UHGV virus genome: UHGV-1497419 | Length of the DNA: 64,000 nucleotides | Source: a virus | Strand: one strand, 5' to 3' | In this document: positions 59,197-63,992 of the stretch, one piece after another | Position numbering within the stretch: the first letter of the stretch is position 1 | How the letters are laid out: every line of letters begins with the position of its first letter | Translations under genes and position numbers: made by a program | The notes under the pieces: generated by a model | Seen by the model: only the letters and a program-made list of their open reading frames with translations | The model's database searches: none | What the model was told of the DNA's origin: nothing

Positions 59197-59931
59197 TTAT
59201 TTCTGTAATGCGCTCTTCATTTCTGGTGTTGCAATAGTGTCAATCACACCAGTTTTACAGGCATCATCAAACCAGTCTGGTAAGATACCTGCTAAGAACC
59301 CATTGATATTCGTTTTAAGGTACTCTGCAATAAGGGCAGCTTCTTCTTCAATCATCTGCACAACTTCATCTGCATAAGCTGTAATCTTTGAAATACCTTC
59401 ATTAATCTTACTAACAGCCTGATTAGCTAAATCAGAAACAGTATCAAGACCCTTATCAATAGCATCTTGCAAGTCACTTAACACACCATTAACACTATCT
59501 AGTGTACTGTTCATCATGTCAATAGCTTTTTGACCATACTCTGTAGCAACACCCATGATACCACTGAATGGTGTACAACCAACTTGTTCTCCTGCTGCAC
59601 CCATAACATTGGAATACCCCTTTGCTACCTGCATACGTGATGAAAACTCATCAATAGACTTTTGACCGTAGTCTGTCAGAGTTTTAGTAGTTGCTGTAGT
59701 GCTTGTAAGGCTTGTTGTAAAGCTGTTTAGAAGGACTGTTGTAAGTCCAGCAGCAACAAGTTTCTCCTTCATTGTAGGGTCTGTTACAGAACTAATAGAG
59801 CTTACAAGTGATGTAGAAGCAGCTACGGTTCCACCGAGAACTGCTGCACCAGTAATAAGTGGGTTAGAGAACCCTTTACCGGTTTTTAAGAGATTAAAAA
59901 TCTCCTTACCTTGTTCTGTCATCTCTTTCAT
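59197..59931 (-). CDS. Hypothetical Ser/Thr/Ala-rich protein embedded in tRNA cluster
   Basis: Track ORF trimmed to the ATG behind AAGGTG so it does not overlap tRNA-Phe. Confidence 0.35.
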   Translation of the reverse strand: MKEMTEQGKEIFNLLKTGKGFSNPLITGAAVLGGTVAASTSLVSSISSVTDPTMKEKLVAAGLTTVLLNSFTTSLTSTTATTKTLTDYGQKSIDEFSSRMQVAKGYSNVMGAAGEQVGCTPFSGIMGVATEYGQKAIDMMNSTLDSVNGVLSDLQDAIDKGLDTVSDLANQAVSKINEGISKITAYADEVVQMIEEEAALIAEYLKTNINGFLAGILPDWFDDACKTGVIDTIATPEMKSALQK

Positions 59932-61935: not shown

Positions 61936-62190
61936 ATTAAATCTTTTTAGAGAACTTCTAAGAACCTAAGCAACAAGGTTCCACAACAAGCTGTAATAAC
62001 CTTAGAAGCCCTCTAAAAAGACCTAAAAAGGTCTTTGCATAGTCTTGTTTAATCCGGTGACTAGAACCTTTGGAGAGCTTGATATTATCTCTTCTCCGTG
62101 ACACCTACTAGGTGCTTTATCAGTGTGTACGACAATACACGCGGGATACCAAAGCGACATCCGAATGAAGCTTGGCTTTAAATCTTATTA

Positions 62191-62280
62191 GGCGGTAAGT
62201 AAAGGAGTCGAACCCTCACCGTATCTCTACAGTGGCAACAGTTTTCAAGACTGTTTGGCTGCCATTAGCCGCTACCTACC
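62191..62280 (-). tRNA. tRNA-Ser (anticodon UGA), long variable arm, CCA not fully encoded
   Basis: Acceptor GGUAGGU/ACUUACC, anticodon stem ACAGU/ACUGU, loop CUUGAAA, long variable arm, T-loop UUCGACU. Confidence 0.55.
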
Positions 62281-62293
62281 CCTAATAAGACTT

Positions 62294-62376
62294 TGGCATG
62301 GGACGGAGGAGTTGAACCCCTTTGAAACGGTTTTGGAGGCCGTTGCTCATGCCTTAGAGTCTTAACATCGTCCCAT
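62294..62376 (-). tRNA. tRNA-like gene, possibly tRNA-Trp (anticodon CCA) with expanded D-loop
   Basis: Acceptor AUGGGAC/GUCCCAU and CCA end are clear; best anticodon loop CUCCAAA; D region about 7 nt longer than canonical. Confidence 0.4.
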
Positions 62377-62887: not shown

Positions 62888-62916
62888 ACTATAAAATAGT
62901 CACATCTCAGTGTCAA
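62888..62916 (-). promoter_or_regulatory. Sigma70-like promoter inside tRNA cluster
   Basis: Minus strand reads TTGACA - 17 nt - TATAGT; transcript would include a ~280-nt leader and tRNA-Arg(UCU). Confidence 0.5.
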
Positions 62917-63089: not shown

Positions 63090-63165
63090 TGGTAGAAGTG
63101 GAGGGATTCGAACCCATCGCCTGTCAGATTAAAAGTCTGCCGCATCACCATTCTGCTACACTTCC
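63090..63165 (-). tRNA. tRNA-Lys (anticodon UUU)
   Basis: Acceptor GGAAGUG/CACUUCU, anticodon loop CUUUUAA. Confidence 0.65.
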
Positions 63166-63172
63166 ATTAAAT

Positions 63173-63307
63173 TATCTTTGTAGATAAGCTACCCAGACTT
63201 GCTTAAGGTCTGTAGCGATGTGTCTTTTCGGGTTAAATCTAGAATCCACCCTTCACCTTTGTGGTCGCATACTCACAGGGAAGCTTAATAACTTATCTAC
63301 AAAGATA
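63173..63307. repeat. Perfect 16-bp inverted repeat pair (TATCTTTGTAGATAAG / CTTATCTACAAAGATA) separated by 103 bp
   Basis: Exact reverse complements at 63173-63188 and 63292-63307, each followed by CCAGAC; no ORF or tRNA between them. Confidence 0.6.
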
Positions 63308-63360
63308 ATTACCAGACCGTTGTTTATCATCTTAAGTGCTACCATTACACCAACTCGACA

Positions 63361-63404
63361 TCTGCCGAGTGAAGGAATCGAACCTTCGCCTTTTCTTTAC
63401 CGAG
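63361..63404 (-). pseudogene. tRNA 3'-half remnant (T-arm plus acceptor 3' strand without matching 5' half)
   Basis: Perfect T-arm GAAGG-UUCGAUU-CCUUC then ACUCGGC, but no complementary 5' acceptor strand or anticodon arm upstream. Confidence 0.35.
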
Positions 63405-63422
63405 AAATATATTGTTTAAGTT

Positions 63423-63450
63423 TTGCTGTAAACGGTCTTCTGTAAATTTG
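63423..63450. repeat. 28-nt motif TTGCTGTAAACGGTCTTCTGTAAATTTG, copy 1
   Basis: Identical to 63965-63992; a partial variant lies at 63507-63531. Confidence 0.6.
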
Positions 63451-63590
63451 TTGAGCCAGACCAAGTTTTAAATTTTTCAAAATTAAATTGGCTTGAAATT
63501 TTAAGTAACTTGCTGTATTTGGTCTTCTGCTCCTTTAAAGAATACTCGTAAGAACTCTTTAAGGGAGGGGCTAAATAGCCCTCTCAAAAT

Positions 63591-63668
63591 TGGCGGTTAC
63601 GAAGGGATTTGAACCCTCATCATCTCCCGTGACAGGGGAGTATTTTAACCAAATTAAACTACATAACC
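63591..63668 (-). tRNA. tRNA-Asp (anticodon GUC)
   Basis: Acceptor GGUUAUG/CGUAACC, anticodon stem CUCCC/GGGAG, loop CUGUCAC. Confidence 0.7.
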
Positions 63669-63907: not shown

Positions 63908-63964
63908 ATGTTTAGTATTACCAGACCGTATCTTTCAATTTTTCCGCTAAAAATTTAATAAATG

Positions 63965-63992
63965 TTGCTGTAAACGGTCTTCTGTAAATTTG
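63965..63992. repeat. 28-nt motif TTGCTGTAAACGGTCTTCTGTAAATTTG, copy 2
   Basis: Exact copy of 63423-63450, about 58 nt upstream (minus sense) of tRNA-Asn. Confidence 0.6.

What the first reader, a model, noticed from the sequence alone, without database searches (positions are those of the whole stretch)
63166..63590. Perfect 16-bp inverted repeats, a tRNA 3'-half remnant and a duplicated 28-nt motif in one tRNA-cluster gap
TATCTTTGTAGATAAG (63173-63188) and its exact reverse complement (63292-63307) lie 103 bp apart, each followed by CCAGAC. That is a potential long hairpin RNA, a miniature inverted-repeat element or a recombination site. Nearby, 63361-63404 carries a perfect T-arm and acceptor 3' strand with no 5' half, which looks like a truncated tRNA. 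The 28-nt sequence TTGCTGTAAACGGTCTTCTGTAAATTTG occurs identically at 63423-63450 and 63965-63992, with a variant at 63507-63531. Together these suggest past rearrangement or insertion in the cluster, or shared promoter or processing signals.
Basis: seen in the sequence. Interest (0 to 1): 0.6.

Follow-up and report, generated by a model that had tools for sequence, protein, structure and literature searches.

The report
Phage Y-RNA-like genes with tRNA mimic
The "gap" in this Felix-O1-type phage tRNA cluster is packed with conserved structured RNA genes, one of them a tRNA look-alike with a closed acceptor stem. All carry a shared sequence "handle" that, across very different phages, sits next to a Ro60-like RNA-binding protein gene, so they are probably that protein's long-suspected partner RNAs.

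Summary
All features lie on the minus strand, the strand of the tRNAs.

- **The 28-nt motif** is the 5' half of a "handle". A 7-8 bp helix begins AGR on its 5' strand, which is followed at once by U(U/A)CAGCAA. The 3' strand ends YCU and is followed by G.
- **Three strict handle units** lie in the window: A, C and B. A fourth lies just beyond the window end in close relatives.
- **The "tRNA 3' half"** belongs to unit B. Its order is handle, V hairpin, T arm, closed 7-bp acceptor hairpin, D arm, handle. This is the topology of bacterial YrlA, a Y RNA that mimics tRNA.
- **The inverted repeat** is a 24-bp terminal stem with strand-specific G·U pairs. It encloses a roughly 140-nt RNA that holds a minimal handle hairpin.

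In near-identical relatives, a 471-aa DUF2828 protein is encoded directly upstream of the cluster. Its predicted structure matches Ro60. In 80 phage loci encoding homologues, strict handle units number 97 on the gene strand and 0 on the other. In the 75 distant loci, 63 of 78 units lie within 700 nt of the gene. No Rfam family matches the gap, and YrlA's GNCGAA motif is absent. I rate this a new variant of the Ro60/Y RNA kind. Binding to the protein is inferred, not shown.

The parts
63918..63987 (-). Unit A, a small handle RNA of about 70 nt. Outer helix UUAC/GUAA; internal loop AGA/G; inner helix AGACCGU (63974-63980) with ACGGUCU (63923-63929); handle motif UUACAGCAA (63965-63973); A/U-rich loop.
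   Evidence: Repeat families D7 and D13. Strict unit scan. Model R1 hit at 63917-63992, 54.7 bits. Lies between tRNA-Met and tRNA-Asn.
63565..63585 (-). Conserved hairpin just 3' of tRNA-Asp (GAGAGGGCU-AUUU-AGCCCCUC). A second hairpin follows at about 63530-63567.
   Evidence: RNAfold. Conserved in all relatives aligned. Role not determined.
63453..63532 (-). Unit C, a small handle RNA of about 80 nt. Outer helix GAGC/GCUC (GUUC in Mooglevirus, giving a G.U pair); loop AGA/G; inner helix AGACCAA (63519-63525) with UUGGUCU (63458-63464); motif AUACAGCAA; internal A/U hairpin.
   Evidence: (family D6). Both helices differ from units A and B by compensatory changes.
63309..63445 (-). Unit B, a YrlA-type tRNA mimic of 137 nt. 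The handle is UUAC-AGA-AGACCGU-UUACAGCAA at 63423-63445 with ACGGUCU-G-GUAA at 63309-63320. The short stem CUUA (63417-63420) pairs with UAAG (63331-63334).
   Evidence: RNAfold alone recovers every helix. Model R1 scores 162 bits. Pair counts.
63392..63407 (-). Variable-arm-like hairpin of unit B (UUUCU-CGGUAA-AGAAA).
   Evidence: This helix is 80% paired across the Ounavirinae and is less conserved than the others.
63371..63387 (-). T arm of unit B: GAAGG-UUCGAUU-CCUUC, with canonical G53, U54, U55, C56, A58 and C61.
   Evidence: Read from the sequence. Rfam tRNA fragment hit at 63371-63391. 98.9% paired, with 4 of 5 pairs changed on both sides, in alignment A4.
63353..63370 (-). Closed acceptor-stem hairpin of unit B: ACUCGGC-AGAU-GUCGAGU, 7 bp with a 4-nt loop and no free CCA end.
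   Evidence: 100% paired, with 3 pairs changed on both sides among three genera. All 7 pairs changed on both sides in A4.
63336..63352 (-). U8-G9 plus the D arm of unit B: GUGU-AAUGGUA-GCAC, with A14, G18, G19 and A21.
   Evidence: Read from the sequence..
63170..63310 (-). Inverted-repeat element, a 141-nt structured RNA closed by a 24-bp terminal stem (5' arm 63287-63310, 3' arm 63170-63193). It ends 4 nt before tRNA-Lys(UUU).
   Evidence: (pair I2). RNAalifold predicts 23 stem pairs. Four of them keep pairing after changes on both sides, and U.G pairs are invariant. Two sequence versions exist among relatives.
63230..63251 (-). Inner hairpin of the inverted-repeat element, with the invariant loop segment GAUUCUAGAUU (a T-loop-like UUCUAGA).
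   Evidence: Alignment: the loop is invariant in both versions while the stem sequence differs.
63194..63212 (-). Unit D, a minimal handle hairpin inside the inverted-repeat element: CAGAC-CUUAAGCAA-GUCUG. Version 2 has CAAACC-CUUUAGCAA-GGUUUG.
   Evidence: a G-C pair replaced by A-U in 4 of 8 sequences. The loop resembles the handle motif UWCAGCAA.

Best explanation
The gap between tRNA-Asp and tRNA-Lys of this Felixounavirus tRNA cluster encodes a set of small structured non-coding RNAs, together with unit A between tRNA-Met and tRNA-Asn. They are co-transcribed with the tRNAs on the minus strand and built on one common handle. The handle is a 7-8 bp helix whose 5' strand starts AGR and is followed by single-stranded U(U/A)CAGCAA. 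Its 3' strand ends YCU and is followed by G.

Units A and C are short versions of about 70-80 nt. Unit B carries a complete tRNA-like domain (V hairpin, T arm, closed 7-bp acceptor hairpin, D arm) where the loop would be. That is the architecture of YrlA, the bacterial Y RNA that mimics tRNA. The inverted-repeat element is a fifth, larger RNA. Its ends form a 24-bp stem, and it contains a minimal handle hairpin.

Inferred mechanism. After the flanking tRNAs are excised, these RNAs persist and are bound through the handle by the phage's Ro60-like protein. That protein is the homologue of Bas63 gp130 (DUF2828 plus a vWA domain), encoded just upstream of the cluster. The variable modules then act as tethers or decoys; the tRNA mimic would do so for tRNA-recognising enzymes or nucleases. 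This is how Y RNAs work with Ro60.

What is shown: the structures, their strand, their conservation and covariation, the Ro60-like fold of the neighbouring protein, and the strand-specific co-location of handle units with that gene family across phages. What is inferred: expression as stable RNAs, binding to the protein, and the downstream function.
For: 1. Structure. RNAfold of the minus strand recovers all helices unaided, with z = -4.4.

2. Covariation among paralogues. The outer helix is UUAC/GUAA in A and B, GAGC/GCUC in C, and UGAC/GUCA in unit E of relatives. The inner helix is AGACCGU/ACGGUCU or AGACCAA/UUGGUCU.

3. Covariation among orthologues of unit B. The acceptor hairpin is ACUCGGC/GUCGAGU in the window, ACACGUU/GGCGUGU in Suspvirus, and ACCCUUC/GAAGGGU in Mooglevirus. 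It is 100% paired, with 3 pairs changed on both sides.

4. Distant homologues. Model R1 finds full-length matches in distant phage loci, all on the gene strand. In the 23-sequence alignment, 91.4% of cells pair against about 40% when the partners are slid. 34 of 36 pairs change on both sides. The covariation score is 0.526 against 0.05-0.09.

5. Strand. G.U pairs occur in the 24-bp stem and in the Mooglevirus outer helix.

6. Neighbouring protein. It carries Pfam DUF2828 and DUF7788. The AF2 model has pLDDT 88.9. The top 11 Foldseek hits in the PDB are all Ro60 or TROVE, with TM up to 0.65. PhageMaP independently calls gp130 Ro60-like and suspects Y RNAs among the neighbouring tRNAs. GenBank names homologues 'Ro-like RNA binding protein'.

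7. Association.
- Strict handle units number 97 on the gene strand and 0 on the opposite strand in 80 loci, and occur in 47 of the 80.
- In the 75 distant loci, the 5' motif alone occurs 70 times against 2. 59 of the 70 have a 7-bp partner, against 2 after shuffling. 63 of 78 units lie within 700 nt of the gene, where 13% is expected.
- The same layout is seen in Mycobacterium phage Faith1, Listeria phage P100, Campylobacter phage CPX and a Staphylococcus phage.

8. Specificity in the window. There are exactly three strict units, all in the last 700 nt and all on the minus strand.
Against: - No expression or binding data exist for these RNAs.
- The Ro60-like gene is not in the window. Its adjacency is inferred from relatives that are 98-99% identical over the last 1.1 kb.
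- YrlA's proposed Ro-binding motif GNCGAAN0-1G is absent from the handle. No Rfam family matches.
- In Felixounavirus the units sit among tRNAs, 0.3-1.3 kb from the gene, so a role in tRNA precursor processing cannot be excluded.
- Vibrio phage V09 has the gene but no unit within 2.5 kb. 33 of 80 loci had no strict unit.
- Two sequenced isolates have lost part of the region: SP116 lacks the 3' part of unit B, the inverted-repeat element and most of tRNA-Lys, and ESCO49 lacks tRNA-Asp, unit C and the 5' part of unit B. The elements are therefore accessory.
- The covariation alignment A4 was fitted to the model and leans towards its structure.
Confidence: 0.65

Rival explanations
1. The elements are cis-acting processing or stability signals of the polycistronic tRNA precursor. 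The long duplex would be an RNase III site and the closed acceptor hairpin an RNase P site. There would be no dedicated protein partner and no function as free RNAs.
For: In the window and its relatives the units are interleaved with tRNAs on one strand. The 24-bp stem ends 4 nt before tRNA-Lys. A 13-bp extension helix also flanks tRNA-Ser. A 7-bp acceptor stem is a known RNase P determinant (Chen 2014).
Against: In distant phages the same handle units abut the Ro60-like gene where no tRNA is nearby. Examples are Faith1, Staphylococcus phage S-CoN_Ph8, L074 and L082. The conserved single-stranded UWCAGCAA is not a known RNase III, E or P signal. A full tRNA-like domain is more than a cleavage site needs.
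Confidence: 0.15
2. The RNAs are real, but the handle is recognised by some factor other than the Ro60-like protein. Candidates are a host protein such as PNPase or Hfq, or another phage protein. The gene adjacency would then reflect only a shared transcription unit.
For: Binding is not shown. The handle lacks the CGAA-type motif used by canonical Ro60 partners. V09 has the gene without nearby units.
Against: The units track the gene in phages of four bacterial phyla whose surrounding gene content is otherwise unrelated. No other gene was seen to be shared by these neighbourhoods in the annotated loci.
Confidence: 0.12
3. One reading: decayed remnants of tRNA genes and duplication scars left by past rearrangement, with no present function.
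For: T and D arms plainly derive from tRNA. The motif is duplicated. Deletions between T loops do occur, as in SP116.
Against: The region is 95-99% conserved in 181 records, and unit B is kept in three genera. Compensatory changes keep every helix. Independent occurrences of the same architecture exist in distant phages. No matching 5' or 3' half-tRNA flanks the region.
Confidence: 0.04
4. DNA-level elements: a miniature inverted-repeat transposable element or recombination site (the inverted repeat), and promoters (the 28-nt motif).
For: A perfect 19-bp inverted repeat. The motif contains TTTACA.
Against: The arms are single-copy in 64 kb. U.G pairs in the stem would be A.C mismatches on the other strand. 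Two versions of the element keep the stem, with no empty site seen. No sigma-70-type site lies at the motif, and the only strong one in the region is at 62916-62888. Handle units are 97 to 0 strand-specific.
Confidence: 0.03

Closest known systems
YrlA and YrlB, the bacterial Y RNAs partnered with Ro60 (Rsr) (Chen et al. 2014, PMC4201824; Wang et al. 2018, bioRxiv 312249)
   Same: Unit B has the YrlA order: 5' stem strand, V, T arm, closed acceptor-like stem-loop, D arm, 3' stem strand. It has tRNA-type T- and D-loop nucleotides and no anticodon loop or free CCA. It is accompanied by shorter RNAs that share the protein-binding end but lack the tRNA-like part, as YrlB does. It is encoded beside a Ro60-fold protein. 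Some distant members carry NCCA right after the acceptor 3' strand. This recalls M. smegmatis YrlA, which is cut by RNase P and receives CCA.
   Different: The conserved end motif is an AGR helix plus UWCAGCAA, not GNCGAAN0-1G. The partner protein scores as Pfam DUF2828/DUF7788, not TROVE. No Rfam family matches. The RNAs are embedded in a phage tRNA cluster. There are four to five handle RNAs rather than two.
Phage Ro60 with Y-RNA-like Yrl1 and Yrl2 of Thermus phage phiLo (PMC12135203; PDB 9KOP, 9L5Y)
   Same: A phage-encoded Ro60-fold protein with small stem-bulge-stem RNAs encoded next to it. The phiLo protein is among the structural matches of the Felixounavirus protein model.
   Different: The phiLo RNAs were picked by the CGAA motif and are not described as tRNA mimics. 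The proteins are only fold-level relatives, at about 15% identity.
Bas63 (JohannRWettstein) gp130, reported as Ro60-like and as a counter to the ppl defence system (PhageMaP preprint, PMC11482910)
   Same: Same gene family and the same genomic context. Bas63 matches the window at 98.8% over the last 1.1 kb. The authors suggested that Y RNAs might hide among the annotated tRNAs.
   Different: They named no RNA. The candidates found here are not annotated tRNAs but lie in the unannotated gaps. Those gaps are partly overlaid by tiny plus-strand 'hypothetical protein' calls.
Permuted tRNA genes (Cyanidioschyzon) and two-piece tmRNA
   Same: The T arm and acceptor 3' strand are encoded upstream of the acceptor 5' strand and D arm.
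   Different: There is no anticodon loop, no tag reading frame, and no tmRNA match from Rfam or ARAGORN in the gap. The 'anticodon stem' continues into the handle helix.

Membership tests
YrlA (tRNA-mimic Y RNA) | Order V, T stem-loop, closed acceptor-like stem-loop, D stem-loop, enclosed by pairing of the 5' and 3' ends | tested here: met
   RNAfold. Hand structure 94.8% paired in 7 Ounavirinae sequences. 91.4% paired with 34 of 36 pairs changed on both sides in 23 sequences.
YrlA (tRNA-mimic Y RNA) | tRNA-type conserved nucleotides in the T and D loops that allow tRNA tertiary contacts | tested here: met
   The sequence shows U8, A14, G18, G19, A21, G53, U54, U55, C56, A58 and C61. The Levitt 15:48 pair is not conserved: position 48 varies among C, A and U.
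YrlA (tRNA-mimic Y RNA) | GNCGAAN0-1G motif near the 5' end (proposed Ro60 contact) | tested here: not met
   The handle carries UWCAGCAA instead. The only GGCGAAG in the window lies at the T stem and is not conserved; relatives have GGAGAAG or GGTGAAG.
YrlA (tRNA-mimic Y RNA) | Encoded next to a Ro60 (TROVE) orthologue | tested here: inconclusive
   The gene lies outside the window. In 98-99% identical relatives it is about 1.0 kb upstream of unit B (the units span 0.3-1.3 kb from it), on the same strand. Pfam gives DUF2828/DUF7788, not TROVE. The fold is Ro60-like.
YrlA (tRNA-mimic Y RNA) | Bound by Ro60 in vivo and modified by TruB and DusA | not testable with these tools
   Needs immunoprecipitation and modification mapping.
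Any Rfam family (including Y_RNA, tRNA, tmRNA) | Covariance-model match | tested here: not met
   Nothing in 63166-63590 except a 14.9-bit tRNA T-arm fragment and chance-level hits. None at the Faith1 unit either.
Ordinary tRNA gene or tRNA pseudogene | Cloverleaf with 5' and 3' ends in the acceptor stem, and a 7-nt anticodon loop | tested here: not met
   ARAGORN tRNAs and none in the gap. The acceptor stem is closed by a 4-nt loop and there is no anticodon loop.
Miniature inverted-repeat or insertion element | Several copies, presence/absence polymorphism, target-site duplication | tested here: not met
   The arms are single-copy in the window. The element is present in two versions with a covarying stem. 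It is missing only in SP116, through a T-loop to T-loop deletion that also removes part of tRNA-Lys.
Sigma-70 promoter (28-nt motif) | -35 and -10 hexamers at 16-18 nt spacing | tested here: not met
   No site at any copy of the motif.
Ro60 / TROVE protein (neighbouring gene, outside the window) | HEAT-repeat ring plus a vWA domain with a MIDAS motif | tested here: met
   Model pLDDT 88.9, pTM 0.88. The top 11 PDB matches are Ro60 over the full length. D279-x-S281-x-S283, T349 and D381 are invariant in 40 homologues. There is no sequence-level PDB hit.

The most novel reading that the evidence does not exclude
The handle (an AGR helix plus UWCAGCAA) defines a large, so far undescribed family of phage non-coding RNAs that are the obligate partners of DUF2828-type Ro60-like proteins. 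It occurs in phages of Proteobacteria, Firmicutes, Actinobacteria and Campylobacterota. The handle would carry interchangeable effector modules: tRNA mimics, short A/U-rich loops, and 200-250-nt ornate domains. The resulting RNPs would be an anti-defence or RNA-surveillance device, for example the activity by which Bas63 gp130 counters ppl.
Probability: 0.45. Interest if true: 0.8.

Novelty: new variant of a known kind. Interest (0 to 1): 0.68.

Why it matters
Ro60-like proteins of the DUF2828 type occur in at least 693 GenBank phage records, including Felix O1-type therapy phages, Listeria phage P100 and mycobacteriophages. One of them has been reported to counter a bacterial defence system. 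Their RNA partners have only been guessed at.

This analysis gives concrete, coordinate-level candidates, a conserved binding-site motif to mutate, and a search pattern that finds them in many phages. That makes the question of what phage Ro60-like proteins do, and with which RNA, directly testable.

It also has two practical consequences for annotation. "Gaps" in phage tRNA clusters, and the tiny ORFs called in them, may be mis-annotated RNA genes. tRNA mimicry of the YrlA type also appears to be much more widespread in viruses than the TROVE-based surveys showed.

Tried and rejected
- **Rfam.** Searches in E-value mode on 5.5 kb and on 851 nt around the gap found no family. A gathering-threshold search on 11 distant loci and an E-value search on 5 named phage loci found no Y-RNA family.
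- **Sequence search against the PDB.** The neighbouring protein had no hit. Only the fold search worked.
- **Literature.** A search for DUF2828 gave nothing relevant. The supplements of Chen 2014 are not held, so I could not check which phages they listed. One search term was rejected by the tool.
- **First loose handle scan (6-bp helices).** It gave equal counts on both strands (356 against 327). I discarded it and replaced it with the strict pattern (97 against 0).
- **GGCGAAG at the unit B T stem as YrlA's GNCGAA motif.** Rejected because it is not conserved in relatives.
- **Small plus-strand ORFs in the gap**. Relatives differ here by 1-5-nt indels, and the inverted-repeat element exists in two unrelated sequence versions. 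I did not pursue them as genes.
- **GATTCTAGATT loop of the inverted-repeat element in distant loci.** No consistent occurrence near the handle units.
- **A TACAGCAA at 59698 (-).** It has no AGR helix or partner and is taken as chance.
- **Alignment A4.** One of its 23 rows (L015:11274-11409) lacks the handle motif and may be a tandem-tRNA false positive.
Full report
**Context.** The last 5 kb of the window is a cluster of 23 tRNA genes, all on the minus strand. The last 1.1 kb matches 304 phage records, at 98.8% identity to Escherichia phage JohannRWettstein (Bas63), a Felixounavirus. The finding covers the 425-nt gap between tRNA-Asp (63591-63668) and tRNA-Lys(UUU) (63090-63165). No ARAGORN tRNA and no Rfam family lie in it. 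Some relatives annotate tiny plus-strand "hypothetical proteins" there.

**The observation.** All three observations are correct.
- The inverted repeat is longer than stated: 19 perfect bp, and 24 bp as minus-strand RNA once U.G pairs are counted.
- The "tRNA 3' half" is followed directly by the complementary acceptor 5' strand and a D arm.

**Anatomy on the minus strand.** Read 5' to 3', the motif and its partner form one structure. This is written here for unit B; unit A is the same.
- An outer 4-bp helix, UUAC/GUAA.
- An internal loop, AGA opposite G.
- An inner helix, AGACCGU/ACGGUCU.
- The single-stranded sequence UUACAGCAA directly after the 5' strand.

Unit C (63453-63532) has the same design with different letters: GAGC/GCUC and AGACCAA/UUGGUCU. 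Both helices are therefore kept by compensatory changes. In Mooglevirus the unit C outer helix reads GAGC/GUUC. That G.U pair works only on this strand. A close relative (L010) shows a fourth unit just beyond the window end, with UGAC/GUCA and AGACCAA/UUGGUCU. There the order downstream of two sigma-70-like promoters is Pro, Glu, unit E, Met, unit A, Asn, Tyr, Asp, two hairpins, unit C, unit B, inverted-repeat element, Lys, Met, Ile.

**Unit B is a tRNA mimic.** Inside the unit B handle, RNAfold on its own predicts five elements:
- a short stem, CUUA/UAAG;
- a hairpin in the variable-arm position;
- a T arm, GAAGG-UUCGAUU-CCUUC;
- a 7-bp acceptor hairpin closed by AGAU, ACUCGGC/GUCGAGU;
- U8-G9 and a D arm, GUGU-AAUGGUA-GCAC.

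The canonical tRNA nucleotides are all present. There is no anticodon loop and no free 3' end. This order is the one that defines YrlA (Chen et al. 2014).

**Conservation of the gap.** The gap is conserved in 252 phage records, 181 of them over 80% or more of its length at 95-99% identity. Across three genera the T arm, D arm and handle are invariant, while the acceptor hairpin changes completely and stays paired:
- ACUCGGC/GUCGAGU in the window (Felixounavirus);
- ACACGUU/GGCGUGU in Suspvirus and in ESh22;
- ACCCUUC/GAAGGGU in Mooglevirus.

Pairing is 100%, with 3 pairs changed on both sides. In Mooglevirus the acceptor 3' strand is followed by GCCA. Several distant members also have NCCA there. 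This recalls M. smegmatis YrlA, which RNase P cuts and which then receives CCA.

**The inverted-repeat element.** It exists in two sequence versions among relatives. Both keep three features:
- a terminal stem of 22-24 bp (RNAalifold: 23 pairs, four of them kept after changes on both sides, with invariant U.G pairs);
- an inner hairpin with the invariant loop GAUUCUAGAUU;
- a 3' hairpin, CAGAC-CUUAAGCAA-GUCUG, or CAAACC-CUUUAGCAA-GGUUUG in the second version.

The loop of that 3' hairpin is a minimal form of the handle motif. The arms occur only once in the window. I saw no empty site and no target duplication. The element is a structured RNA, not a mobile element.

**The neighbouring gene.** In relatives, the first gene upstream of the cluster on the same strand encodes a 471-aa protein with Pfam DUF2828 and DUF7788.
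- It has no sequence match in the PDB.
- An AlphaFold model built from 40 homologues (pLDDT 88.9, pTM 0.88) matches Ro60 structures as its top 11 PDB hits over the full length. These include Xenopus Ro, Deinococcus Rsr and Thermus phage phiLo Ro60, with TM up to 0.65. The next hits are isolated vWA domains.
- A MIDAS motif is invariant.
- The PhageMaP preprint independently describes this very protein, Bas63 gp130, as Ro60-like and as a counter to the ppl defence system. It speculates that some neighbouring "tRNAs" may be Y RNAs but names none.
- GenBank annotators call homologues "Ro-like RNA binding protein".

**Association across phages.** I fetched 80 IMG/VR loci encoding homologues at 38-98% identity.
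- *tRNA-like modules.* A script looking only for a T arm, a closed 7-bp hairpin and a D arm found standalone modules in nine distant loci. All were on the gene strand and none overlapped a called tRNA.
- *Flanking handle.* In each case the module was flanked by a helix X...X'. X was followed by (U)UUCAGCAA or UACAGCAA, and X' by G. This is the same handle as in the window.
- *Strict scan.* The pattern was an AGR helix of 7-8 bp, then W-[U/A/C]-C-[A/C/G]-GCA, then a perfect partner with at most one G.U, followed by G, within 260 nt. It gave 97 units on the gene strand and 0 on the other, in 47 of 80 loci.
- *Distant loci only.* In the 75 distant loci the 5' motif alone is 70 against 2. 59 of the 70 have the partner, against 2 after shuffling the downstream sequence. 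63 of 78 units lie within 700 nt of the gene, where 13% is expected.
- *Sizes.* Lengths are bimodal, about 55-65 nt and 95-250 nt. The large ones hold tRNA-like modules or other complex domains.
- *Covariance model.* A model built from seven Ounavirinae unit B sequences finds full-length matches in distant loci, all on the gene strand. In the resulting 23-sequence alignment 91.4% of cells pair, against about 40% for slid partners. 34 of 36 pairs change on both sides. That alignment is fitted to the model, and at least one row may be a tandem-tRNA false positive.
- *Named phages.* Mycobacterium phage Faith1 has three units right after its "Ro-like" gene, the middle one a tRNA mimic (41.7 bits). 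Listeria phage P100 has three right before its gene. Campylobacter phage CPX has two, and a Staphylococcus phage three. Several of these neighbourhoods have no tRNA nearby, so the units follow the gene, not tRNAs. Vibrio phage V09 has the gene but no unit within 2.5 kb.

**Interpretation.** The most economical reading is that the window encodes four or five Y-RNA-like RNAs: units A, C and B, the inverted-repeat element with unit D, and unit E outside the window. The handle would be the binding site of the Ro60-like protein. Unit B is the YrlA-type tRNA mimic, and units A and C are YrlB-like. By analogy with Ro60/Y RNA systems, the modules would tether the protein to other factors or act as decoys. 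The structures, strand, conservation, protein fold and co-location are shown. Expression, binding and function are inferred.

**Rivals.** The alternatives considered are:
- pure precursor-processing signals;
- a different binding factor;
- decay products of tRNA genes;
- DNA-level elements.

The last two are contradicted by covariation, strand-specific G.U pairs, single-copy arms and the lack of a promoter match.

**Known versus new.**
- *Known:* phage Ro60 proteins with Y-like RNAs (TROVE type, CGAA motif), and bacterial YrlA and YrlB.
- *Different here:* the handle motif, the DUF2828-type partner, the location inside a tRNA cluster, and the number of paralogues. No Rfam family and no paper in the searchable library describes these RNAs.
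- *Not checked:* the supplementary phage list of Chen 2014, so the mycobacteriophage members may already be listed as YrlA.

**Verdict.** This is a new variant of a known kind, with a substantial chance of being a large undescribed RNA family.

Noticed in passing
window 62300-62374 (-): A tRNA-like gene missed by ARAGORN. It has a 7-bp acceptor stem, a T arm, and an anticodon stem AACGG/CCGUU with a 9-nt loop CCUCCAAAA and an unusually long D region. Rfam gives only tRNA-Sec at 23 bits, E = 0.39. It is conserved in relative L010 (9452-9532).
   Followed up: partly
window 62180-62293 (-): tRNA-Ser(UGA) is flanked by a 13-bp helix (62180-62192 with 62281-62293) that extends the acceptor stem in the RNAfold prediction. 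This may be a processing signal.
   Followed up: partly
window 62888-62916 (-): A strong sigma-70-like promoter (TTGACA, 17 nt, TATAGT; 11 of 12) lies inside the tRNA cluster, downstream of tRNA-Ile. The cluster therefore probably has internal promoters.
   Followed up: no
window 63530-63585 (-): Two conserved hairpins lie directly 3' of tRNA-Asp. The base of the second competes with the outer helix of unit C. Their function is unknown, and neither is followed by a U-run.
   Followed up: no
L091 (Listeria phage P100) 926-1477 and 5238-6455: A ROOL RNA match (86 bits, E = 4e-16, below the gathering score of 99.1) lies 1 kb upstream of the Ro60-like gene. An RtcB 'tRNA splicing ligase' lies 1.3 kb downstream. 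This echoes the bacterial rsr-yrlBA-rtcBA arrangement.
   Followed up: no
L016:4840, L024:628, L034:5409, L053:5652, L066:5653, L073:1891, L074:5435, L081:5625: RNAs of 200-250 nt are enclosed by the same handle next to DUF2828 genes. They fall into at least two conserved sequence classes and are not tRNA-like.
   Followed up: partly
L007 (Salmonella phage SP116) and L008 (Escherichia phage ESCO49): Natural deletions. SP116 fuses the T loop of unit B to the T loop of tRNA-Lys, losing the inverted-repeat element. ESCO49 lacks tRNA-Asp, unit C and the 5' part of unit B. The elements are therefore dispensable for propagation.
   Followed up: partly
L009 (Escherichia phage REP5) 901-1031: The GenBank record annotates a 131-nt 'tRNA-Thr GGT' across unit B. 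This is a mis-annotation of the tRNA mimic.
   Followed up: partly
L033 11696-11922; L042 12119-12481: A group I intron (71.5 bits) and a tmRNA gene (61.1 bits) occur in other phage contigs that carry the Ro60-like gene.
   Followed up: no
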